A DNA stretch of 63,130 nucleotides, counting the filler, from Basidiobolus ranarum (lineage: Eukaryota): the NCBI GenBank assembly GCA_040143965.1. It is 34 parts of 34 records of this genome, joined end to end, with 100 filler letters (N's around TTAATTAATTAA, not from the genome) between each part and the next. Parts side by side here need not be neighbours in the genome. Positions count along the whole stretch, not along the records: positions 13,068 to 14,833 come from JASJQH010011260.1; 33 more parts are not named here. One strand, written 5' to 3'. Below, one piece after another: positions 1,869 to 51,725 of this stretch (its first letter is position 1; each line of letters starts with the position of its first letter). Position numbers and translations under genes: made by a program. The notes under the pieces were generated by a model. The model did not search any database. It saw nothing but the letters and a program-made list of their open reading frames with translations, and was not told the origin of the DNA.

Positions 1869-3736
1869 AGTTATGGCTGAGTGATTCTCCAACATATTTG
1901 ACAGTGCGAGTTAAATGACAATAGAAGTCAAAGGAGCCACCAACCAATAAGAGATTCTACTAATAAAATCATCTCCATACTGAACAGTATCTTCAGTAAC
2001 ATCTTGGTAAATAAAGGGCCACACCGACTAGTGCGTATTAATCAACATACTAACCAACCTTCATTTTGGTTTATTTGTGTTAACCGTTACACCAACTTTG
2101 TACAATCATTAAACTTACAATTATGATACAACAACATTTGGCTAACTGATGACCTCTTGCTACAAGCGTATGATCCAGGATTTATACAGAATGTCATATT
2201 GCTTTTACTTATAGTTTCCAGTATGAACTGACATATTAGGTGCCATTGAATTGTACATAATACATACATAGATAAAATACTTACACTCGCATTATAGAAC
2301 CTTGAGTAAATATCAACACAAAGTGACCTATAAAAATGAGGAAGGACAGAAGTAACAAAACACATGCAAAGTATAATACACATTGTAAGTTAGAATCAAG
2401 ATCATTGCCATTGCTACAGAGTTCAATAGTGATAGCAATGATGCACTAAGAATAGATAGTTATGTGACATGAGATGGATATATAAAGATCAATCTACTTA
2501 ATTCTGCGCACAGGTACTGCTAGAATGAAGAAATGTAGTGATGGCTCAAGAGTGTGTAATGGGCACCAGGTACTAATATGTAATTGTATTCCTTTCTAGA
2601 GAACTCTTTGAGAGAACCCATCCCAGCCTTTAAACTGAACATTTAACCAAGCTTCCTTCTTTCCAGCTAGAGGTATGGCATAAAATACTGATACTTGCTC
2701 TACATTCATAGTTTTAGTAGATATTCAGCAATGTCAACCCATTTTTCAAAAACATCATTTTTGGCAACTGTGCCTTGCAGTAAGCCTCATTCTTTCATTA
2801 CTTCAGGATTTGCTATCCAAATTCCCCAGAGTGAAGACAAAGATTGTTGATTTTTGCTACTGATATATCACTTGTTTCTCTTCTAGCCTTCATCAATTCC
2901 TTTGTTATTAAGGTGGGAAACTTCTTAAACATGAACTTTCTTACTCTTGCACTCATAGTTGATATTTATTCTATCCTTTCATTAGGGTATTATAAGTGCT
3001 GATTTACTGACTGTCACCATTAACATATTTTTCAATGAATTCACAACATTTGTAGATTAACTATTGAAGGTATACTTTGGAAAAGAACTTCATCTTTGAA
3101 TATTTATTATCTTTATAGATTTGCTAACTTTGAATCTTTTCGCATTCAAATTGGTGCCTTGGGAGCCATGCTGTGTGGTACTATGTCTACTTTGCTGAGT
3201 GCTACAATTGCTGGCATGTTGTTTTGTTAGATTTTTCCTATCATCAAAACTCACTACCTTGCAAAACAGCCTACTTATTAATCCTCACCCCCATTTTATT
3301 GAGAAATACCAATTCAAAACCATCATGAAAAGGGGTAATGCACCCAACAAGAGATAGCAAAGCAGGCAGCCTAGAAGTTGTGAAAATAATAACCAATGAA
3401 GTTCTGTGCAATCTTGCCAGCATTGCTAATTTGAGGTTAACCAGCCTTGCTAATCAAGTCTGTGGCCATGTTTCCATACTTTGTTACAGTGCCCTCAAGA
3501 AAGCAGGACTCAAGGTAGATCAAAATTAGTACATATTGGTCATGACTTTCCAACATATATTCAAACAGAGCAAATATCTCACTTGATAGTGCTTATTACT
3601 CTAGTCATGGTAACAGAGCCTGTAAATAGTCTTCTTNNNNNNNNNNNNNNNNNNNNNNNNNNNNNNNNNNNNNNNNNNNNTTAATTAATTAANNNNNNNN
3701 NNNNNNNNNNNNNNNNNNNNNNNNNNNNNNNNNNNN

Positions 3737-4115
3737 TATTGGGAAATACTCCAGGAAATGGAAGGAATTTAGAGTCTCTAAATCTTTTGTCCCAGGCATC
3801 TTCAACATCATTTGTCACTGATGCTAGATAATTCTCACTTACTTGAAGCCTAGTATGGATGCTTCTCCCACTTTTGCTACCAACAATAGTGCACTGAAAT
3901 CTGATTGGACAATGGTTTTTGTAGTAACAAAACAAATTGAATAGCTGCTTTCTGGTACGTATTGGAGTATATGAGCCACAGTATTTCTCAAATATAGCCT
4001 CTAGGGTGATGACAGGAAAGCCAGTAGTTGCTTTTGGATTAATGAGGAATGACCATTTAGAATAGATGGAGAGCATGATATTAACCTTGTTTTGAGCTGC
4101 CATGATATTGATCAA
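3737..4115 (-). mobile_element. PIF/Harbinger (ISL2EU-like) transposase N-terminal fragment
   Basis: TTGF..TLEAIFEKYCGSYTPI..QLFNLFCYYK..AWDKRFRDSKFLPFPGVFPN resembles the HTH region that precedes DDE_Tnp_4 cores. Repeated twice in 56186-57325. The catalytic core is not visible. Confidence 0.5.
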
Positions 4116-4458
4116 TCTGGCACGTGCAAGTTATTTACCTAAGAATTTCAATTATCATGGTAAAATTCCCTATATTCTGTATAATAAAATTTCTGTTTGC
4201 ATTTATTATTCTAATTATTTCAATTATGTGTAATTGCATGGCAATTATATAATAAACTGCATCAGTAAAGTTAATCATGGTTTCATCCAAATCAATTTAT
4301 TTAGCGCATATATTGAAACGGCTCAAAGAGGAATGCATTATGCTTGATCATACTATAGGAAATTAACTTTGACATTTTAAGCAACAATATAAGAAGATCC
4401 CTAATTCTGATTGAAACCAATAAAGTCAAACATCATAGATATATGGTAGTTACGTATC

Positions 4459-5503
4459 ATGTCAAAGCAGATTCTTCCTGATTCAAAACCTACTTTGGTA
4501 CAGGAAACCACCACTTCCAAAATTTTGTGCATGCAGTCAAATGAAGGTGTGGGTGGCATGAAGCAGCGCATGCCTAATGATTTTACAGATGCCCAGGTAT
4601 TCACTATAAATTCTTGCTTGGATATATGGGAGTTATTGATAAACTTGACAGAAGCTGGGGAAGGGGGCATCTGACAAAAGTGGAAGCAACTTTTGACTCT
4701 GCTTTGGAGAGAATACTATATCTTCATGCCTTCATAAGTCTGCAAGAAAATATACATTAAGACTCATGAGGATAGAAAGCGTCAATTGAGAAATAGGAAT
4801 TTTGATTTTGAGTCTGCAAAGATACAATTCCAATTGTGTTTTTGCTTGTAAGGACCAGAAGTGACCATTGCGGCCTCAACTTTGGAGACAGAAGATGTTC
4901 TATATAGATATCTACCACTGCTCAATGAGACTTTGCAGCAACTGTTGATGGAGGTTGCAGGGTTCAAAACCACATTTCAGGACACTATGGCAACAGTAAT
5001 CAACAGAGGTGTAAAGAGAAAAGCAAGACAATTTATAGAATAAGAAGATATTCCCAAAGGCAAATTGGAGCAGTCTAGACCATTGCAGAGACATACTAGA
5101 TCACTCCAAATCAAAGAGACTCCTGACAAGGTATCTATTTCACAAGAAGAATCTACACAACTCACCACTAGAATTGAGGTAACACCTCCAACAAGGGCAA
5201 GAGCCCAACAAGTTAGTTCATCAGCTAGTAGTACACATTGACAGCAATACCAGCTTGGAACAGTCCGTGTTGTTTCTATTGTTTTTGATGACAAGCAAGC
5301 AGTCATTGGAGAACCAGAAAGAGGACGGCCTGCATTTTCATGCATTGTAGCATGCAATTTACCTGATTCAACCAAACCAACCAGTGAGCTTTTTACATCT
5401 GGAGAAGAGTCAGCTCCAAGGAGCATGCCACCAGAAAGAAATACCAGTTTAACATGTACAACCGCGCGACAGCAACAAAGGCCAACTGCAAGAATTATTG
5501 AAC
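4459..5503 (+). pseudogene. Myb/SANT-like accessory ORF of the Harbinger-like element
   Basis: One frame of about 348 codons with 5 point stops. FTDAQV...QKWKQLLTLLWREYYIFMPS*VCKKIY is trihelix-like, followed by an S/T/P-rich tail. Divergent from the transposase. Confidence 0.5.
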
Positions 5504-9335: not shown

Positions 9336-10159
9336 CTTTAAATCTGTAATAAAGTTTTTCATATCCAACTACAAAATCTTTGCACAGTTGCTGTATCTGC
9401 CTGAGATCTGCCAATGTGAGTTGATGCCATAAGAATATATAAACAATATCCACAAACCATTCCCAATGTTGCCAATACTTCTCAGGCAGAAATTTTTTCA
9501 AAATTCCACTTGAATATATACAAATCCAATACTTCCAGTCTTTGCATTTGAATAAATGCCAAGATGAGTGGATATTGATTGGAGTCATGGTAAAATATGA
9601 TGGTATCTTGATGTTTTCAAGCATTTTCCCAATCAATTCAAACTTTGATCCTATCTTGAATGGCTCATTCATATTGAATTTTCCACCATATAGCTGAGTA
9701 AGTAGTATTGGAATGTTGTTGAATAGTAAGTGCATAGTGCCTAATGGGAAGCTCTGGCTCCAGCTGATATCCTTTAGCAATATAATCTTAGGCTTACGGC
9801 TAATACCAAGCTTGATGTTAGACTTACTATTTGGTGAATTGATATCAGTGAGTATATTGAAATAGGACTGGGCTCTTGACAGTAAAATCATGAAGTTTAG
9901 TGTTGTATTTGGATAGTAGTAATGCAGATGCCTGTTAGAGTAAACTCCATTGATTTGACAAAATCTACAGCAAGATAGTGCATTGTGCCCATGAAAACCT
10001 CCAAGTTTAATGATGGCAGGAGTGTCACCAATACATACAATGATATTAACTTTAATAAAATATTCACCCATCTGAACCCCATTAGATAACCATTCAAATT
10101 CCCCAATCAAAGGCTCCAAGAAGCTATCTATAAGCACTGGTGATTTAGGTCCAGATATG
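9336..10159 (-). mobile_element. CMC/EnSpm (Tnp2-like) transposase core
   Basis: DSFLEPL..IGDTPAIIKLGGFHGHNALSCCRFC..PLGTMHLLF..FKCKDWKYW..LPEKYWQHW. Confidence 0.9.
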
Positions 10160-10508
10160 TGTTAAAGTATTTGGGAGCCTATTGGAAGTGGTTTGGAGAA
10201 TGACAGGAATTGGTTGTTTTCACTTATTGATTTATTGAGTAGAAAGTTGACATTTATAGTTTTGTCAAGATCTAAACAAACTAACATGTAGAATATGTTA
10301 CAGAAGGTCCCAGGAATATGTGTGCAAAGTTTGGGGCTTCTAGCACAAGTTTAAAAAATCTATATATTAGCATACCTCTAAGTTGGGGAAAAATATTTAA
10401 GTAAACTCAAACTGAGAATAATTGGTAATATCTTAGTGAAATATAAGATAACTAAGTGCTAAGTTATATATGACTATTTAGATGTTTAGGCAATGATAAT
10501 TTTGAAAA
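10160..10508 (-). repeat. Copia LTR-1 (about 350 bp) with PPT
   Basis: Family consensus TGTTGAAATTAGCATTGCC...ATACTTTAACA. PPT TTGAGGGAGA is adjacent. More than 10 full or partial copies in the window. Confidence 0.9.
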
Positions 10509-13067: not shown

Positions 13068-13330
13068 GGCTATTTGATGTGCATACTTTAAGTTAATTGG
13101 CTCATATAAACTATGTTGAAAGTAAAAGTCTCGATGGTTGTTGATAAACTCTTGGTAGGTTCTTGACTTTGACGATGCTGGTTTTTTATTTGGTTTGTAA
13201 TTCTGGAGAAGTGACAAGAAGATTTCTCTGTAAAAATCAACGTTGGAAAATTTTTCCAGGGCAAAGGCAGGGTCATTTTCCAATTCTTGAATAAAAATGT
13301 ACTTTAAACAGGTGAACGAGAATGATATCC
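13068..13330 (-). CDS. Probable Fanzor1 (eukaryotic TnpB/Cas12-like RNA-guided endonuclease) N-terminal fragment, truncated by the contig edge
   Basis: SFTCLKYIFIQELENDPAFALEKFSNVDFYREIFLSLLQNYKPNKKPASSKSRTYQEFINNHRDFYFQHSLYEPINLKYAHQIA is an open frame that follows the helical pattern I recall for fungal Fanzor1 REC regions. RuvC is not visible. Confidence 0.6.
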
Positions 13331-13408
13331 TAGTACTTAAGGAGTTATTGGCAGTGTTTGGAGAGTTAGAAGTTTGAAGATGTATCCATTTTGAAGTCCA
13401 CAAATTCT

Positions 13409-13954
13409 TGTTGAAATTAACATAGCCTAAACATCTATAGAGTGATATATGGCTTAGTATTGAGTTAATCCATATTGAACTGAGATATTACCCTATTCTC
13501 AAGAGGAATTTACTTGGAAGTTTGAAGACATATAGATTTTGTTAACTTGTCTTAGAAGCCCCAAACTTTGCACACATGTTCCTGGGACCTTCCTTGACAC
13601 ATTCTACAGTTAAATTATTTGGAAGCCTGTTGGAAATGGTTTGGAGAATTAGAGAAACTGGTGGTTTTAACTTATTGATTTATTGATTAGAAAGTTGACA
13701 TTTGTTATTTTGTCAAGATATAAGCAGAATAACATGTAGCATGTGTTAAGGAAGGTCCCAGGAACATATGTGCAAAGTTTAGAGCTTCTAGCACAAGTTT
13801 GAAAAATCTATATATCTGAGAACTTCTAAGTTGGTAAAAGTATTCTAGTGAGTTCCAATTTAGAAAAATGGAAAATATCTTAGTGAATTATAAGATAGCT
13901 AAGTACTAAGCTATATATGACTATATAGGTGTTTAGGCAATGCTAACTTCAACA
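13409..13954. repeat. Two copia LTR-1 copies in opposite orientation (13409-13607 + truncated; 13608-13954 -)
   Basis: Match to LTR-1. PPT at 13955-13966. Confidence 0.85.
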
Positions 13955-13969
13955 CTCTCCCTCAACTAA

Positions 13970-14833
13970 ATAGTCATATAAACTAATTGTAAGGAAGGTC
14001 TAAATTTCTCAAATTTCTGTCTGGCTAATGGTTTAGTTAATATATCAGCAATCATGTCTTCTGTAGAAGAATAAGTTAAGTCTATAAACTTACTCTCTAT
14101 AGTCTCTCTAATGAAGAAATGTCAAATATCTATATATTTGCTTCTATTAGGAAACATGGGATTTTTAGCTAATTTGATACAACTTGGATTATCTTGAAAC
14201 ATTGTAGTTGGTGAATTTTGAGAATAACCTAAATCTGGTAAGAGTTTTCTTAACCATATTGCTTCTTTGGTTGCTTCACAGGCAGCCATGTATTCTGCTT
14301 CTGTGTTGAAAGTGCTATGGTAGATTGTTTCTTTGAACTCCAAGAAATAGCTCCATTTCAGCAAAGAAATAAGTATCCTGTTATAGATCTCCTGTCTTCA
14401 ATATCTCTTCCTCAATTTGCATCTGAATATCCCATCAGATCAAAGTTTGATCCAGAATATGTGTATTTTAAGCACAGATCCACAGTACCTTTCAGATGTC
14501 TGAAAATCTACTTAATGCTATGATTTGATCAGATTCAAAATCTTGAAGATATTGGCACATAATACCCCAGAATAGGCAATATCTAGCCATGTTCCAACCA
14601 TGATATACATTGGATTACCATCATAGATTGCTAAGGAAATTTCTGGCTTTCTTTTAAATCCAAAATTGTCTGATTTGAGCCATCTTTGGTCAAGTCAAGA
14701 TTTGTCTCCTTTGAGGTAGATACTGTTAAAGTATTTGGGAGCCTGTTGGAAGTGGTTTGGAGAATTAGAGGAATTGGTAGTTTTCACTTGTTGATTTATT
14801 GAGTAGAAAGTTGACATTTATAGTTTTGTCAAG
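13970..14833 (-). mobile_element. Copia RT/RNase H interrupted by LTR-1 (14724-14833)
   Basis: TEAEYMAACEATKEAIWLRKLL...FQDN...RSKYIDI. Confidence 0.9.
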
Positions 14834-22836: not shown

Positions 22837-23573
22837 TTAACATATGTCACAAGTATCACTAAAAAATTCTTCCACATTGTATTGCATTAATCTCAAACGT
22901 TGTAAAGTTGTCAAACTTGTATTGTTATAAAAAATTTGCATCTTTTTTGCAAGTAAAAATATTTGTTTGTCTGTCAACATCAACAAATGCATAGGCATTG
23001 GAGTTGTATCTATACTGCGCAATTTCTGTTCTAATGTCAATAGACTTGCATCTCTACATTTTTATATTCAGCCTCAATTTTTGGATTAGAACTAATAGAT
23101 GGAAAATCTACAGGTATAATCGTCATATTTCCTAGTTGTGCTTTAATATTATTCGAATTTTTGTCATCCCATTTTTGATCTGCATTGGTTATTACACGTA
23201 CCCCATTTACTTCAAATGCTGGGCCAAAAATTGTTTTTACAAATTCTGTTATAGATCTATCTAATTCATCTATTGTACCAGATTTCTGTATGATGCATAT
23301 ATGATGAAATTTTGCTGAAACTTTCATGATGAAATCACAGACATCCTCAAAATTTACGGGATTACTAGATTCATATAATCCAACTGTATCACATATTGTC
23401 CAATTTGGATTTGTACTATTTTCTTTACACTTTAAAGTTACCAATTTTGCCATGTCACCGATTTTAAATTCATCTTTATTGTTGTTACGTAAATGTCCCT
23501 GACAAAGCATAGATGCCACAGTAGATTTTCCTGTGCCAGTTTTCCCAAATAATATGATGTTTTTCTTTTCCAT
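22837..23573 (-). pseudogene. AIG1/GIMAP-like P-loop GTPase, single frameshift at about 23059-23063
   Basis: G1 GKTGTGKST, G3 DTVG, G4-like VITNAD. Adding one A joins EAEYKK to CRDASLLTLEQKL. Intronless. Confidence 0.8.
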
Positions 23574-23668
23574 TGCATAAAATTTATTTATTATAATACA
23601 GACTTTCTATCATTGAAAAAACATTTGTGGCAGTTGATAATACAATTAGATACTTATATTATTCTACA

Positions 23669-30885: not shown

Positions 30886-31322
30886 GTTTATCCTCAAGCG
30901 GTATCGGTGTTGGGTGAGGGCAAAGTCTAGTCACAAGTTAGGATCTATAAATTACTTTTACACCTGGACTTTTAATAGCCCGTGTGAAACGTGGAGACAG
31001 TCAACAGAGCCAATTAAGTATTCATCATAATTGGTCCGGATTAGGATTCTAGACAGCCACTTACTGCCAAAACTATATAACCTCCAGATATGGCTAATAT
31101 CTGATTAATCAACGCTATGCTGGGCAAAGTAGCAGGTAAAACTAATCTTCTCCATCTTTCTGAAGGGTTTGATTCGTCATCTATAATGGCTGAGTTCATT
31201 TGAATCCAGCCAATCTCACATGAGATAAAGTGAGAGAACAATGTGATTGAATGTATATAATGTACATGATCGAGTTTCCAAAATGTTGTAGATCTGCGTC
31301 TTACACTCATTTCTTATACATT

Positions 31323-31589
31323 ATGAGACTAGTTATCCGTGACGACGCTTCGAAAGTGAGCCAATATATTGCCGAGTATATCAAACGTCGTATCTTGGAG
31401 TTCAACCCAACTGAAGAGAGACCATTTGTGATCGGACTTCCTACCGGTGGCTCACCTATACAGGTTTACAGGCGCTTGGTTGAGTTCCACAAGGCTGGCG
31501 AGCTTTCCTTCAAGAATGTCATCACCTTTAACATGGACGAGTACGTCGGTCTCCCCAGAGATCATCCTGAGAGTTACCATTCTTTCATG
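31323..31589 (+). CDS. NAG1: Glucosamine-6-phosphate deaminase, 5' part
   Basis: MRLVIRDD...[13 protein letters not shown]...[24 protein letters not shown]. Confidence 0.97.
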
Positions 31590-33548: not shown

Positions 33549-34745
33549 CAACATTCCAATACTACTTACTCAGCTATATAGTGGAAAATTCAATATGAAT
33601 GAGCCATTTGCGATAGGATCAAAGTTTGAATTGATTGGGAAAAAGCTTGAAAACGTCAAGATACCTTCATATTTTACCAGCACTCCCATCAATATCCACT
33701 TGTCTAGGCATTTATTCAGATGCAAAGACTGGAAGTATTGGATTTGTATATATTCAAGTGGAATTTTGAAAAGATTTCTGCCTGATATAACATTATATGT
33801 ATTGATGACACTCCTGCCATCAATAAACTTGGCGGTTTTCATGGGTACAATGCACTATCTTGCTGTAGATTTTGTCAAATCAATGGAGGTTACTTAATCA
33901 GGCAAATACATTACTACTATCCAAATGCACAACTAAATTCCATGATTTTACCATCAAGAGCCTGGTCAGATTTCAGCATGATCACTGATATCAATTCACC
34001 AAATAGTCAGTCTAACATCAAGCTTGGTATAAGCTATAAGCCTAAGATTATATTGCTCAAGGGGATCAGCTGGAGCCAGTGCTTCCCATTAGGCACTATG
34101 CACTTACTATTTAACAACATTCCAATATTACTCACTCAGCTATATAGTGGAAAATTTAATATGAATGAGCCACTCAAGACGGGATTGAAGTTTGAATCAA
34201 TTGGGAAAATGCTTGAAAACATCAAGATGCCTTCATATTTTACCAGGACTCCCATCAATATCCACTCATCTAGGAGTTTATTCAAGTGCAAAGACTGGAA
34301 GTATTAGATTTGTATATATTCAAGTGGAATTTTGAAAAGATTTCTGCCCAATAAGTATTGGCAACAATGGGAGTTGTTTGTCAATACTTTCAATATATTC
34401 TTAGAGCATCAACTCACATTGTTAGATATTAGGAAGATATGGTGACTGTGCAAAGATTTTGTAATTGGATATGAATAACTTTATTACAGGTTTAAAGAAG
34501 ATAGACTGAATCTATGCTGGTATTTGATACATTCCCTGCTACATCTTTCACAATGCTTAGAGATTATAGGCCCTTGCTATACATTCTGGGAGTTCCCAAT
34601 GGAGGGCACCTATGGTGAAATGATGCTCCAGGTGAAATTGTCAGTATTACCATATGCTAATCTGATTAACACTATATCAGCAAAATCCGTGATGGATGTA
34701 AAGCAATGGGATAAGGAGACTCCAGAGTATATTACCCTGCCATCA
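33549..34745 (+). mobile_element. CMC transposase with internal duplication (33549-33787 recurs at about 34115-34350)
   Basis: NIPILLTQ...KRFLP occurs twice. Confidence 0.85.
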
Positions 34746-39441: not shown

Positions 39442-40878
39442 TTACTTTGCGGTATCGTGCATTATGGCTTCAAACTTCAGTAACACTGCCTCTTGATCCA
39501 ATTGAACCGCTACATCTTTTCTTCCATGAGGGTTCTCCCGTTTTTCTTCATTTATCAAATCACTAGCTGAGTTGTATATACCTTGCGATGATAAAGTAAC
39601 CAAGTCGATACAGCCAGCAAGAGGCTTCGTTAACATACTAACACTACCGATGGCAAACCCCTTACCAAATCCGGGCAAGCCTTCGGTCATAGCGCCCTTA
39701 ATTGGCTTTGTGAAAAAATCCGAAAAACCTAGTTAAAAGTGAGAACAATTTGGTTAACGTAAAGTACCAAACATGGACGTGAAAAAGAATTGGAGCTGGT
39801 CATTGAATATATTAGATACTTGCCTTCTCCTACTCCTTTCCCTAATTCTGCAAACCCTTTAAGTATACCATCGCCTGCTCCGTGAATCATAGGGATGGGC
39901 CGAACTGACTCACTCTTATCTATTAATGCAGTGGTATTTCTGAACCCATCACCTAGACTCTTCAAGGATTTCCCTCCGCCTGGTAAAAATGTCATGTAAG
40001 CATTTCATTCCAGTACGAATCAGTTTTCAGTGCATACCTAATATAGAATGGCCAAGGCTACTTGCCAATCCTTTCCCCACACCTAAAATAACCTCTTTAG
40101 TGGCCTGATCTGCTGGCTTGCCTCTCGCTTTCCGGATTCCTTTAGAGGATTCGGCGAAAGCACTCTTGGTGCCGTTAACAAACCCGTTGCATAGTCCCCA
40201 TGCTGCACTCAGGGAAGCCGAAAAGAGATCCTCCAATAATACCTCAGTGTACCAATGTTTTGGTTTATACTGTCGTAATTTGTTCGCTTTAATTTTGCCC
40301 TGAGATAGTAATATATCCGCAGCCGCTTGGCATAGCTTAAGATGAACATCTTCGGCATAAAGAGTGGCGAGTTGGGAAGGCTCGATATCACAGAGCATGT
40401 CATCTAGAGGAAGATTGGCATGGAATGCATCCACTGTAGCCTCTGCTCCATTTTCAGCTTGAATTCTTCCTCCTACTTCCTCCGCCTTTTGCATCGTTTC
40501 TGGCGAAATCGCCAAGCGAATAGCTTCTGCCAGATTATTGGCATTAAGTTGCTTGAAGGGTATTGGCGGAGGGCCACATCCGATCTCGGCAGTCATTTTT
40601 CCCCAGAACGGCTGGTCACCAAAGAAGGGAACAATGATAGTGCTTCGGCCAGTTCTCAGGCCAGCTGCAGTTGTACCTGCACCTCCATGGTGACAAACAG
40701 CCATGCAGCGTGGGAACAGCCAGTCATGAGGGCAATTCTCGATTATCATAACGTTCTCTGGAACTGTAATCTCATCTCCACCCAATCCACCCCACCCTTT
40801 AGAAACTAGAGCTCTGACCCCTGCTTGGCGAATTGCATCGAATATTGTCTTCGTAAGTCTGTCGGGATCATCCACTAC
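39442..40878 (-). CDS. Sterol 3-beta-glucosyltransferase-like (GT1), 3' part; exons 40878-40038, 39979-39824, 39728-39442
   Basis: CPHDWLF..VCHHGGAGTTAAGLRTGRSTIIVPFFGDQPFWG. A GT-AG intron and a GC-AG intron restore the frame. Confidence 0.93.
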
Positions 40879-46799: not shown

Positions 46800-48304
46800 T
46801 GATTACTGAAGCATGTGTTACTGTAAAACCACAAAATTGCAACAAGCTAACTTTTTTGATTTTGGATTTGAAACAGATGATGCATATTTTGTTTGTCTAA
46901 AAAGCTACACCAAATCAATGATTGATACTTGTGGGGAGGTTAAAGTAAACCACATGTTGTTAGTAGTGCAATTGGTAGCAAAACCTCTATTACCACACTC
47001 ATTATTAGGCTACTTCACAAGCAAAGGCCTGTTTGTTTGAACCATTGGATTTATATACACAATTGGGCTTTGTCAAGATTTTTGAAAACAGAGCTATGAT
47101 TAAGTTTAGAAAGTTTTGTTAATTAACCATAGGGGAAGCATTGATATTTTTTTGATAGGAATACAGATATGAAACAAAGTTATATCTAGTACTGTTGGAG
47201 GATTGGATGTTCATGCAGATGGACTTTATTGGTTTGATTAACTTATATTTTCACAGTAATCACTAGGATTATATCTAAGTTTGTATATGTTCTGTTCCTT
47301 TTCCTCCAAAGCTTAATAAATCCCATTGTGTTCAGTGAAGATGAATCCTGACTTACCAAAATTCAATATTAGTCCTTCTGGTAAGTTCTTGCATATAGAT
47401 ATTCAATTGTTGGCAACATCTGGAGCATGTAGTACATCCTTGAAAGTATACACTCTTTCTTCAGAAGCACTGGTTAAACTGACTTGAATTGTTCCCATTC
47501 CAAAGATATCCAATATAGAGTTATCTCCCATGAAAACCTTTTTAATTGGAATTTCTTCATAATCTGCAAACCACTGTTTTTCATTTGTGGAATTGTAGAG
47601 GCTCTGGAATCATCATACCATGTCCAAGAATCCTTGTTTGTAGTCCTAGATTGGGCAGATATGACCAAGTAATAATTTGCTTCAAAGACATTTCCAGATT
47701 CAGTATGTGTTGCTTCTTTTGCAATTCTTTTGAAGCAATATTTTCTTAAATGGCCAGCTCTTTTACAGTGTTTGCAAAATGTATTACTTCTCCTCTCAAA
47801 GTGCTTGTAACCCTTACAGGAAGGTCTCCCATAGTCAATTAATGCTTTTTCTGTATTATTATGGTTGGATCTAGATTTGCATAAGTCTTCTTGAAGGAGC
47901 CTGCAAAAGCAATAATTGAAGGTCAAGTTTTCAGTTCCAGATTTTAGAGCATTTACTATGATCTGAAACTTGTCAGTTAGACTTTTCAGGACTGTGACTA
48001 TGATATCCTGATTTGAAGTAGGTACTTTAATGTATTCCAAATCCTCTACTAAAATTGTAACTCTATAGATGAGTGATTCAATGTCTTACTCTGGCTTCAT
48101 TTTAACATAGATTATTGTCTTCTTAGAAACAACCTGTTGGTAGTATAAAATGCTTGGTGATGTCTTTCAAGGCTTCTCCTATCTTCTTGGGATTTCTGGC
48201 TCTGGACTTTTGAATTTGCAATATATCTTCAACATTGGGATAATAAGGCTGAAGGCACTTTGTTTCTCCAACCTTGAGTAAAACTTTAGTTTTAGACAGC
48301 TTTG
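46800..48304 (-). mobile_element. Old copia gag-protease fragment
   Basis: CKHCKRAGHLRKYC, WYDDSRAS, KDVLHAPDV. Confidence 0.8.
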
Positions 48305-50259: not shown

Positions 50260-51605
50260 AGAACATCTGTGGGAGTAAAATGAGCTATTTTAGGGGCAAT
50301 TTGGACAAGTTTGAAATTTCCAATATGGAATTGCTAGTTCTCAGTTTATTCACATATATATATATTATATGTTCTGATTTCAGTTAAGTGATATTTGACT
50401 AAGTAATGCTAACTAACTTATAAGTGATATATGAAATAATTAGGCGTATAAAGATAGAGATAACAAATATGATAAAGACAAGAAACTTCCATACTCCTAC
50501 TCAACTAAATATTCTTATATCTTAATCCTAACTTAAATCTTAAATCTTCACATTTTGGCTTGTAATGGTTTGTTAAGGATGTCAGCAATTATGTCCTCAG
50601 TTGAACAGTACTCCAGTTGGACATGCTTATTCTCAATAGCTTCCCTAAAAAGTGATGTTGGATATCAATGTGCTTACTTCTAGTATGAAATTTGTGATTT
50701 TTAGCTAAAGAAATGCAACTTTGATTATCCTTGAAAATTATGGTGGGTGAACTTTGAATAATGCCCAAGTCTTTGAACAGTTTCCTTAACCACGTAGCCT
50801 CCTTTGTTGTATGTGATGCTGCAATGTACTCTGCTTCAATTGTTGAAAGTGCTATGAAGGGTTGTTTCTTGCTATTCCAAGATATGGCTGCATCACTATA
50901 GAGAAAGGTATATCCAGTGATAGATCTTCTGTCCTCAATATCACGTCCCCAATCTGCATCACTAAACCCAATTAGATCCTTATTCTCATAAGAATATGTG
51001 TATCTTAATCCCAGATCAATTGTCCTCTTCAAATATCTGAAAATCCACTTAACTGCTGCATAATGCTCAGATCCTGGGATTTGCACCAGTTGGTTGACTA
51101 CTCCCACTGCAAAAGAGATATTTAGTTGGGTTCCAGTCATAGCATAGATCAAACTACTACCATAGATTGATAAGGGAACCCAGGGCTATCAAATGACTTA
51201 TTTTAAGCCATATTTGGCCATTTTGATCATTTTGGATGGGATTTTTGACTAGTTTCACACCTGGATCTATGGGAGTTGCTACTGGCTTGCAATTCTCGAT
51301 CCTGTAACGTCTGAGAATGTCTGAGATATATTTAGATAGATTCAGAGTGATAGATTTACTGAATATATCTGTATGGATCTTCAGGCCTAAAAAATATGTA
51401 AGTTCACCTAAATCGGACATCTTGAATTGGACTGATAGATCTCTTTTGGTGCTCCTGCAAGCTTCATCATTATTGGTAGCTATAATCTGATCATCTACAT
51501 CTAAGGCAAGTATCACCTTACTGTCCTTATCTGTCTTAAAGTAGATCCCAAAATCCACCATACTCTTTTGGAAATCAAGTGATTCCAAGTATGTATCTAT
51601 CTTAG
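50260..51605 (-). mobile_element. Copia RT-RNase H with 3' LTR-2 (50260-about 50493)
   Basis: LDVDDQII, MSDLGELTYFLG, GFSDADWG, ALSTIEAEYIA, TRSKHIDI. Confidence 0.95.
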
Positions 51606-51725
51606 TAGACTTGTTCCATCCGACCAGGTCAGATTGTGCTGCTCAATCCAGCCTGCTAGTACACTATCTGGCGCGATCTGTCAATTATCATGGCTGGGTC
51701 CTATAACACTCAATTGGACACTATA
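51606..51725 (+). repeat. Unclassified repeat starting TAGACTTGTTC (second copy 59875-60006)
   Basis: Two copies share a sharp 5' boundary with different flanks. Confidence 0.6.

What the first reader, a model, noticed from the sequence alone, without database searches (positions are those of the whole stretch)
13068..13330. Probable Fanzor (eukaryotic RNA-guided TnpB-like nuclease) fragment hidden among LTR debris
Seen: an uninterrupted frame of about 87 aa that runs into the contig edge and keeps several CpGs, unlike its neighbours, so it is younger or less methylated. Its order of motifs is LKYIF, then NVDFYREIFLSLL, then a basic linker, then YQEFINNHRDFYFQHSLYEPINLKYAHQIA. This parallels my recollection of the fungal Fanzor1 REC region, which is normally followed by a Y...T...NN/NV..HF motif. 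The comparison is from memory and must be verified. Known: Fanzors are transposon-encoded, omega-RNA-guided endonucleases. Inference: this genome carries a Fanzor family whose RuvC domain, omega-RNA and host transposon lie on other contigs. The 5' end of this copy appears cut by insertions.
Basis: partly seen in the sequence, partly recalled or inferred. Interest (0 to 1): 0.75.

Follow-up and report, generated by a model that had tools for sequence, protein, structure and literature searches.

The report
Broken Fanzor1 nuclease gene relic
This is a real but truncated piece of a Fanzor1 RNA-guided nuclease gene in a fungal genome, cut off by a retrotransposon on one side and by the end of the contig on the other, so it is an ordinary transposon fossil and not a working nuclease.

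Summary
On the minus strand a stop-free frame of 140 codons runs from 13487 into the contig edge at 13068. All 4 CpGs of this 1766-nt contig lie in 13068-13408. The last 86 residues match the solved Parasitella parasitica Fanzor1 (PDB 9cf0) at E 4.5e-13. A family profile built without the query scores 100 bits. An AlphaFold model finds only Fanzor structures with TMq of 0.59 or more. Full-length relatives carry the RuvC D-E-D residues and the zinc finger. Only about 89 codons (13068-13334) are clearly Fanzor, covering the N-terminal helical (REC-lobe) part. At 13409 the frame runs into the 3' LTR of a degenerate Ty1/copia element. The frame has no ATG. No other of the 34 short contigs in the window holds any Fanzor sequence. 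The host is probably a Basidiobolus-like fungus. A metagenome relative (L001) shows the whole element between 135-nt inverted repeats. Verdict: a new but broken member of a known family. RuvC, omega-RNA and transposon ends could not be tested for this copy.

The parts
13068..13334 (-). Fanzor1-derived coding remnant. It is 89 in-frame codons (TRISFSFTCLKYIF...KYAHQIA) for the N-terminal helical part of the REC lobe, and it runs off the contig at 13068.
   Evidence: phmmer to PDB 9cf0 PpFz1 gives E 4.5e-13. The family HMM built without the query gives 100 bits, E 1.7e-32, aligned from 13334. There is 74% nt identity over 250 nt to the full-length relative L001. The AF2 model has pLDDT 81 and is helical. 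Foldseek's top hit is PpFz at TMq 0.74. dN/dS against L001 is 0.14 over 89 codons.
13335..13408 (-). A 74-nt stretch between the LTR end and the clear Fanzor homology. It stays in frame but is not alignable to relatives at DNA level. It is either heavily decayed 5' coding sequence or filler.
   Evidence: There is no DNA similarity to L001 here. Conserved family positions are violated, for example H->F at a column that is 94% H and L->P at a column that is 93% L. In-register identity to the closest relative P0002 is 6 of 24, against 53 of 79 downstream, and 1-4 of 24 to five other relatives. The stretch 13366-13393 weakly resembles an LTR segment (23 of 28, E 0.056).
13409..13954 (-). 3' LTR (546 nt) of a minus-strand Ty1/copia retrotransposon. 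It starts TGTTG and ends CAACA, and it has an internal palindromic structure. It truncates the Fanzor frame.
   Evidence: Repeat copies on 7 other contigs of the window (6, 9, 12, 14, 24, 33, 34) all begin within contig positions 337-347, most at 341-342; position 342 = window 13409. The sequence reads pol stop TAG 13968-13966, purine tract GAGGGAGAG 13963-13955, then TGTTGAAG from 13954. Inverted arms are 13409-13500/13863-13954 and 13512-13608/13735-13831. It has zero CpG.
13966..14397 (-). Degenerate C-terminal part of the Ty1/copia pol, containing an in-frame stop at 14122-14124.
   Evidence: Two adjacent same-frame ORFs are separated by a stop. The upper one is 66% identical over 59 aa to the ORF on contig 28 that overlaps the 3' end of an RVT_2 reverse transcriptase ORF. 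Pfam itself gives nothing on these short pieces.
14721..14833 (.). A second, partial copy of an LTR segment at the other contig edge.
   Evidence: It is a direct repeat of 13605-13717 at 88% identity.

Best explanation
The stretch 13068-13334 (minus strand) is a fossil of a Fanzor1 gene. Fanzor1 is the eukaryotic, transposon-borne, omega-RNA-guided RuvC endonuclease.

How an intact family member works (established knowledge, from passages of PMC11423790): the protein binds an omega-RNA made from the transposon's end. Its REC and WED domains clamp the TAM duplex and hold the first guide nucleotides. The guide pairs with the target strand, and the C-terminal RuvC/TNB lobe cuts the DNA.

What survives here: only about 89 codons for the first REC-lobe helices. 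Upstream, the gene is severed by the 3' LTR of a now dead Ty1/copia element at 13409, after 74 nt of unalignable sequence. Downstream, the assembly simply ends.

The frame has no start codon, and nothing catalytic is present on this contig. I therefore infer that this copy makes no active nuclease. It does record that a Fanzor1-bearing DNA transposon family lived in this genome, which is probably Basidiobolus-like.

Shown: the homology, the fold, the LTR junction, the missing ATG, and the coding-type divergence. Inferred: the REC-domain label, the inactivity of this copy, the host taxon, and the kind of transposon that carried it.
For: Homology:
- PDB 9cf0 PpFz1 matches at E 4.5e-13 over query residues 54-139. 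The next PDB hit is at E 0.5.
- 37 library hits have E<=1e-3, and 7 have E<=1e-10.
- The family HMM scores 100 bits in this frame and less than 1 bit in the other two.

Fold: the model has pLDDT 81.3. Foldseek ranks PpFz first (E 9e-5, rmsd 1.7 A over 91 columns), and SpuFz is the only other hit with TMq of 0.59 or more.

Family identity of the relatives:
- P0180 (Mucor mucedo, 685 aa) hits PpFz1 at 5e-213 and SpuFz1 at 2e-47.
- The L001 ORF hits them at 4e-134 and 3e-41.
- Both show IDPGRRD, L(I/F)DE(Y/F)(K/R)TS..CP.C and WNRD.

Truncation: the repeat boundary is at 13409, with TG..CA ends, a purine tract and the pol stop. There is no M in the 139 translated residues. tblastn with the library hits finds Fanzor only at contig 8 positions 1-342; 36 of the 37 hits match there and none matches any of the other 33 contigs.

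Former function: dN/dS is 0.14 against L001. In the well-aligned part, most of the family's conserved positions are kept.

Host:
- The glycosyltransferase on contig 22 is 79% identical to Basidiobolus meristosporus. The highest identity among the other 119 listed hits is 57%.
- Contig 22 shares the LTR repeat with contig 8 (95% over 121 nt).
- A Basidiobolus ranarum protein is among the hits and is 81% identical to L001.
Against: Pfam and NCBIfam give no TnpB/Fanzor hit on the fragment. Pfam also misses or under-scores full-length relatives.

No RuvC, zinc finger, omega-RNA or transposon end can be seen for this copy, because the contig ends at 13068.

The frame carries no stop or frameshift over 89 homologous codons and keeps CpGs. 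An intact downstream part therefore cannot be excluded.

The REC-domain label rests on the order of elements and on the all-helical model. I did not read residue boundaries from the paper's figures, which are not held.

The host assignment rests on one gene.
Confidence: 0.85

Rival explanations
1. The fragment is an exon of a still functional Fanzor1 gene. The copia element would sit in an intron or upstream region, the missing N-terminal codons would lie on the other side of it, and the RuvC half would lie just beyond the contig edge.
For: The frame is open and conserved over 89 codons with dN/dS 0.14. CpGs are retained, unlike in the adjoining repeat. The 74 nt next to the LTR are unalignable to L001 and could in principle be intron. 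Relatives have short introns, for example L001 between 4041 and 4086.
Against: There is no ATG anywhere in the frame. The full-length relative L001 is colinear coding DNA, with no intron, across the corresponding region. A multi-kilobase retrotransposon inside an intron would be unusual for fungi with short introns; this is general knowledge and was not tested here. The flanking copia is itself decayed (in-frame stop), so the disruption is not recent.
Confidence: 0.08
2. The fragment is a chance open frame in LTR debris, with only superficial motif resemblance to Fanzor.
For: The window is AT-rich and full of retrotransposon remains. The frame continues open for 26 codons into the LTR purely by chance. 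Pfam finds nothing.
Against: E is 4.5e-13 to PDB, 3e-29 to the best library hit and 1.7e-32 to the family profile. DNA identity to L001 is 74% over 250 nt. The stretch has no copy on the other 33 contigs.
Confidence: 0.01
3. The fragment is a piece of a host gene that merely shares a REC-like helical module with Fanzor1 (a domesticated or captured fragment), not a transposon nuclease gene.
For: Only the REC part is visible. 28 of the 37 hits are gene models shorter than 350 aa with no nuclease part.
Against: Wherever a relative is long enough, the same N-terminal module is followed by RuvC and a zinc finger: P0024, P0038, P0180, P0181, P0046 and L001. The closest full-length relative, L001, lies between 135-nt inverted repeats like a DNA transposon. 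The short hits mostly sit on contigs of 0.7-2 kb, so they look truncated by assembly.
Confidence: 0.04

Closest known systems
Parasitella parasitica Fanzor1 (PpFz1; PDB 9cf0-9cf3; PMC11423790, passages read)
   Same: The fragment has the same N-terminal helical module. HMMER aligns 86 residues at E 4.5e-13. The predicted fold superposes at rmsd 1.7 A, TMq 0.74.
   Different: Only about 89 codons are present here. PpFz1 is a complete enzyme with WED, REC, RuvC (with the FRI insertion) and TNB, a 75-nt omega-RNA and a 5'-ATN TAM. The closest relatives of the fragment have a much shorter N-terminus (M-x-P-P-L-K..VKSS).
Short-N-terminus Fanzor1 subgroup. Members: Rhizopus microsporus CEG74287.1 (P0002), Gilbertella persicaria (P0004), Basidiobolus ranarum KAK9663772.1 (P0012), and metagenome locus L001
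   Same: These are the best matches. Identity over the core is 53 of 79 to P0002. To L001 it is 66% over 53 aa and 74% at nt level over 250 nt. To P0012 it is 58% over 50 aa. L001 shows that this subgroup has the full D-E-D plus zinc finger.
   Different: The window copy lacks the conserved WK..Y...L..LV...N.LVTHTF segment and everything after AHQIA. L001 lies between 135-nt inverted repeats, whereas no transposon end is visible here. A tree of 33 sequences does not place the fragment in any supported clade.
Fanzor1 families of Mucorales described by Bao and Jurka 2013 (PMC3627910, passages read): ROr, PBl and MCi elements
   Same: The protein family and the fungal setting are the same. These are non-autonomous DNA transposons carrying only Fanzor1.
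   Different: Those elements were assigned to MuDR with 9-bp TSDs. The carrier of this copy is unknown. Basidiobolus is not in that paper's species table as shown.
Prokaryotic TnpB (IS200/IS605, IS607) and Cas12
   Same: They share ancestry and the overall logic of a REC/WED lobe plus a RuvC/TNB lobe guided by a transposon-end RNA.
   Different: The fragment has no detectable sequence similarity to them. No TnpB or Cas12 chain appears among the 6 PDB sequence hits at E<=10 or among the 47 fold-search rows shown of 84 matches.

Membership tests
Fanzor1 | Significant sequence homology to experimentally characterised Fanzor1 proteins | tested here: met
   PpFz1 9cf0 matches at E 4.5e-13. The family HMM without the query scores 100 bits. 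There are 37 library hits. Those that are full length hit PpFz1 and SpuFz1 strongly.
Fanzor1 | REC-lobe fold as in solved Fz1 structures | tested here: met
   The AF2 model has pLDDT 81. Foldseek pdb gives PpFz at E 9e-5, TMq 0.74, and SpuFz at TMq 0.59. No listed non-Fanzor hit exceeds TMq 0.29.
Fanzor1 | Split RuvC catalytic triad D-E-D | not testable with these tools
   It would lie beyond the contig edge at 13068. No genome is held, and no other contig of the window matches. It is present in relatives: IDPGRRD, LIDE/LFDE and WNRD.
Fanzor1 | C-terminal zinc finger / TNB domain | not testable with these tools
   The reason is the same. Relatives show CP.C...C..LL.C. One relative has a weak Pfam Cas12f1-like_TNB hit at E 0.007, below the cut-off.
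Fanzor1 | Omega-RNA encoded at the 3' end of the gene, reaching the transposon end | not testable with these tools
   The 3' end of the gene is not on the contig. Rfam finds nothing in the window.
Fanzor1 | Residence in a transposable element (TIRs and TSD) | not testable with these tools
   No element end is visible for this copy. The relative L001 has 135-nt inverted repeats, 89% complementary, around the gene, and both outer flanks read TA before TAGTG.
Fanzor1 | Complete, translatable ORF (needed for an active member, not for family descent) | tested here: not met
   There is no ATG in the 139 translated codons. The 5' part is replaced by 74 unalignable nt and a copia LTR. The 3' part is absent from the contig.
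Ty1/copia LTR retrotransposon (the flanking element) | Pol related to RVT_2-type elements, followed by a purine tract and an LTR with TG..CA ends | tested here: met
   It is 66% identical over 59 aa to the ORF on contig 28 that overlaps the 3' end of the RVT_2 ORF. The pol stop, GAGGGAGAG and then TGTTG...CAACA are seen. The LTR is repeated on other contigs. The 5' LTR, the primer-binding site and the target-site duplication are not on the contig.

The most novel reading that the evidence does not exclude
Intact sister copies of this short-N-terminus Fanzor1 may persist elsewhere in this Basidiobolus-like genome. They would sit in roughly 2.9-kb elements bounded by long inverted repeats, as in L001, and would be active omega-RNA-guided nucleases of a subgroup shared at about 65-70% protein identity between Mucorales and Basidiobolus. 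That level of identity might reflect transfer of the transposon between these distant fungal lineages.
Probability: 0.25. Interest if true: 0.4.

Novelty: new member of a known kind. Interest (0 to 1): 0.3.

Why it matters
Fanzor1 proteins are the eukaryotic RNA-guided nucleases now being explored for genome editing. Their distribution among early-diverging fungi is part of the story of how TnpB-like systems spread in eukaryotes.

This fragment, the Basidiobolus ranarum hit and the metagenome element L001 together show that the Basidiobolus lineage carries (or carried) a Fanzor1 family close to the Mucorales one. I found no paper holding both 'Fanzor' and 'Basidiobolus' (0 papers). Supplementary tables of the large Fanzor surveys could not be seen and may already list it.

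The copy itself is a dead fragment. Its value is as a pointer to where intact copies might be sought, and as a clean case of a first-stage reading from memory that stood up to testing.

Tried and rejected
1. Pfam and NCBIfam on the fragment gave no relevant hit. Pfam on 12 longer relatives gave only one sub-threshold TNB hit. These libraries cannot decide the question.

Full copies, expression and small RNAs could therefore not be sought.

3. Two of the three homologous-protein searches found nothing. The first used the fragment with 'longer' lengths. The second used alignment A1 with 'longer', which searched only proteins of 1200-3425 aa and was a poor choice on my part.

4. I tested whether the divergent stretch 13335-13408 hides two compensating frameshifts, because another frame reads YIFKLLTLQT, like YISPLKTLVT of P0002. 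A position-specific score from 28-30 relatives gave that peptide no positive score, and the family HMM found nothing in the other frames. The idea was dropped.

5. I tested whether 13335-13408 is another LTR scrap. There is only a 28-nt match, 23 of 28 identical, E 0.056 within the window. This remains unresolved.

6. A maximum-likelihood tree of 33 sequences over 109 columns left the fragment in an unresolved polytomy, with no starred clade holding it. P0012 was left out as too short. No statement on the donor lineage is possible. By hand count, core identity to L001 is 54 of 79, the same as to Rhizopus P0002 (53 of 79). The data therefore do not favour a Mucorales origin over a Basidiobolus one.

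7. Earlier findings of the scan hold nothing for this genome or sequence. One unrelated Fanzor relic in an algal virus turned up and did not affect the reading.

8. Rfam gave 0 matches in the window.

Full report
**What the window is.** The 63,130 bases are 34 contigs of 1752-1768 nt joined by N44-TTAATTAATTAA-N44 linkers. Overall GC is 35% and CpG observed/expected is 0.21. The finding lies at the low-coordinate end of contig 8 (13068-14833).

**The observation.** On the minus strand the frame is open from 13487 down to the contig edge at 13068. That is 140 codons; one search lists it with linker X's, and translates 139 of the codons.

All four CpGs of the contig (13132, 13173, 13241, 13317) lie in 13068-13408, giving o/e 0.44. 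The other 1425 nt have none. Across the window, contigs that look genic have CpG o/e 0.43-0.78, and repeat contigs have 0.02-0.25. The fragment therefore sits between the two classes. Four CpGs is a small count, and 18% of the 986 sampled 341-nt windows reach it.

Stop-free runs of 139 or more codons are 12 observed against 0.38 expected after shuffling.

**What it is.**
- Pfam and NCBIfam are silent.
- A phmmer search of PDB sequences gives one clear hit: the MBP fusion of Parasitella parasitica Fanzor1, 9cf0, E 4.5e-13, query residues 54-139. The other five hits are at E 0.5 or worse.
- An exhaustive phmmer search of 1.84 billion representatives gives 37 hits at E<=1e-3. The best is P0002, 59% identical, at E 3.2e-29.
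- I looked up 30 of the 37 hits. Fourteen carry an organism name. Twelve are from Rhizopus, Gilbertella, Spinellus, Helicostylum, Mucor and Parasitella, which are Mucorales by my own knowledge of taxonomy. One is Syncephalis and one is Basidiobolus ranarum. The other 16 come from unnamed records.
- Long relatives have the Fanzor/TnpB hallmarks IDPGRRD, LIDEYKTS..CP.C and WNRD.
- P0180 (685 aa) hits PpFz1 at 5.4e-213 and SpuFz1 at 2.3e-47.
- A profile built from the relatives without the query scores 100 bits (E 1.7e-32, three sequences searched) on this frame, aligned from 13334 to the contig edge. It scores nothing in the other two frames.
- An AlphaFold2 model of the 113 residues outside the LTR, built with a 35-row alignment, has mean pLDDT 81.3 and is helical. 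Foldseek against the PDB ranks PpFz first (E 9.1e-5, TMq 0.74, rmsd 1.7 A), then SpuFz (TMq 0.59, weak E). Everything else listed has TMq 0.29 or less.
- According to passages of PMC11423790, the REC lobe (REC plus WED) clamps the TAM duplex and holds guide nucleotides 4-8, and R448 of PpFz1 lies in the WED-RuvC loop. The fragment maps well upstream of that residue. I call it the start of the REC helices, but I did not see residue boundaries because figures are not held.

**Where the gene stops being a gene.**
- blastn of contig 8 against all 34 contigs shows that positions 1-336 are unique in the window. Repeat copies on seven other contigs all begin within positions 337-347, most at 341-342; position 342 corresponds to 13409.
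- Read on the minus strand, the sequence shows the end of a pol frame (TAG at 13968-13966), a purine tract GAGGGAGAG (13963-13955), and then TGTTGAAG... running to ...TTTCAACA at 13409. This is a 546-nt LTR with TG..CA ends and two pairs of internal inverted arms.
- The pol piece (13966-14397) has an in-frame stop. It is 66% identical over 59 aa to an ORF on contig 28 that overlaps the 3' end of a Pfam RVT_2 ORF. The flanking element is therefore a decayed Ty1/copia.
- Between the LTR end and the clear Fanzor homology lie 74 nt (13335-13408) that stay in frame but do not align with the full-length relative L001 at DNA level.
- This stretch breaks nearly every conserved position of the family's WK..Y...L..LV...N.LVTHTF segment. 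Its in-register identity to P0002 is 6 of 24 (shuffle p 0.005, chosen after seeing the data). Downstream the figure is 53 of 79. Against five other relatives the stretch scores only 1-4 of 24.
- The translated frame contains no methionine.
- Only about 89 codons, roughly an eighth of a protein of some 700 aa, are recognisable. They have lost their start.

**Is the rest nearby?** tblastn with the library hits against all 34 contigs finds similarity only on contig 8, positions 1-342. Thirty-six of the 37 hits match there; P0030, a repetitive protein, matches nothing. RuvC, zinc finger, omega-RNA, TAM and the carrier transposon are untestable for this copy.

**Host.** Contig 22 encodes a glycosyltransferase that is 79% identical over 99% of its length to a Basidiobolus meristosporus protein. 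The highest identity among the other listed hits is 57%. Contig 22 begins with the same LTR repeat as contig 8 (95% over 121 nt). One of the Fanzor hits is a B. ranarum protein. I infer a Basidiobolus-like fungus from this single gene.

**A full-length relative.**
- A metagenome scan with hit P0006 returned one locus, L001, of 4815 nt.
- It carries a Fanzor1 gene from about 2217 to 4361. The N-terminus is short (MEPPLKIITVKSS...).
- There is a one-base excess in a T run that shifts the frame near 2430. This is either a real frameshift or an assembly error.
- There is a short intron-like gap between 4041 and 4086.
- The full IDPGRRD, LFDEFRTSSLCPSC and WNRD set is present.
- Its main ORF hits PpFz1 at 4.4e-134 and SpuFz1 at 2.7e-41. 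It is 81% identical over 109 aa to the B. ranarum protein.
- The window fragment is 74% identical to it over 250 nt. It differs from it with dN/dS 0.14 (89 codons, Nei-Gojobori method, dS 1.56 and near saturation). The divergence therefore accumulated mostly under protein-level constraint.
- The L001 gene lies between inverted repeats of 135 nt, 89% complementary, at 1721-1855 and 4446-4580. Both outer flanks read TA before TAGTG. This suggests, but does not prove, a TA-flanked DNA transposon.
- Upstream lies an ORF with a weak tyrosine-recombinase signature (Pfam Phage_integrase, E 6e-4, below the cut-off).
- No other part of L001 matches the window.

**Comparison with what is known.**
- Fanzor1 in Mucorales and other early-diverging fungi has been known since Bao and Jurka 2013. 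That paper's species table lists Rhizopus, Mucor, Phycomyces, Allomyces and Spizellomyces, and assigns some elements to MuDR (passages of PMC3627910).
- PpFz1 is biochemically active, with a 5'-ATN TAM and a 75-nt omega-RNA (passages of PMC11423790).
- No paper in the searchable library holds both 'Fanzor' and 'Basidiobolus' (0 papers). A five-term search (min_terms 2) pairing Fanzor with Zoopagomycota, Mucoromycota, Entomophthoromycotina and Rhizopus found 1,271 papers. It listed 15 of them, and none of the 15 contained the word Fanzor.
The Nature 2023 survey is recalled, not read.
- A tree of 33 sequences does not place the fragment. It is about equally distant from the Rhizopus and the Basidiobolus-type relatives.

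**Verdict.** The object is a truncated, start-less remnant of a Fanzor1 gene next to a dead copia element. It is a new but broken member of a known family in a lineage where that family is not prominent in print. It is of modest interest, mainly as a pointer to possibly intact copies elsewhere in this genome.

Noticed in passing
whole window; per-contig table: CpG depletion is bimodal. 27 of the 34 contigs have CpG o/e 0.02-0.25; those checked carry retrotransposon or transposase remains. Seven contigs have 0.43-0.78. Examples are contig 22 with the glycosyltransferase at 0.64 and contig 17 at 0.78. The copia part of contig 8 has 0 CpG where about 38 would be expected from base composition (my arithmetic). 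This fits repeat-targeted cytosine methylation and deamination, or a RIP-like process.
   Followed up: partly
window 13409-13954: The copia LTR is largely palindromic. There are two nested pairs of inverted arms: 92 nt at 75% complementarity and 97 nt at 85% complementarity. This is an unusual foldback-like organisation for an LTR.
   Followed up: no
window 13366-13393: A 28-nt stretch just outside the LTR resembles LTR segments 13514-13541 (23 of 28) and, inverted, 13803-13829 (E 0.056). It coincides with the part of the frame that has lost Fanzor homology. Whether it is chance, filler DNA or an older LTR scrap is not resolved.
   Followed up: partly
window 9336-10161 (-) and 33786-34307 (+): Two related long ORFs on contigs 6 and 19 carry a weak Pfam Transposase_21 (tnp2) signature (E 2.6e-4, below the cut-off; ORFs). 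They are probably a DNA-transposon transposase family present in several copies.
   Followed up: partly
window 23040-23606 (-): A 189-aa open frame matches the AIG1-family GTPase domain (Pfam PF04548, E 2e-9, above the cut-off).
   Followed up: partly
window 40030-40878 (-): This is a C-terminal part of a sterol-glucosyltransferase-like GT1 enzyme. It is 79% identical to a Basidiobolus meristosporus protein and has Pfam EryCIII-like_C. It was used here as the marker of the host lineage.
   Followed up: yes
window 47477-48085 (-), 50592-51642 (-): There are further Ty1/copia pieces: a gag (Retrotran_gag_2, E 4e-6, just under the cut-off) and an RVT_2 reverse transcriptase (E 5e-22) with the adjoining C-terminal pol region.
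   Followed up: partly
L001 1-906 and 1721-4580: The metagenome relative carries a complete Fanzor1 gene between 135-nt inverted repeats, with TA next to both outer ends. It has one extra T in a T run that breaks the frame near 2430. Immediately upstream is a tyrosine-recombinase-like ORF with a weak Phage_integrase hit. Whether the recombinase belongs to the same element (Crypton-like) or to a neighbour was not examined.
   Followed up: partly
window 31251-31589 (+): An open frame at the edge of contig 17 reads like the N-terminus of glucosamine-6-phosphate deaminase. This recognition is from memory and was not tested by any search (sequence).
   Followed up: no
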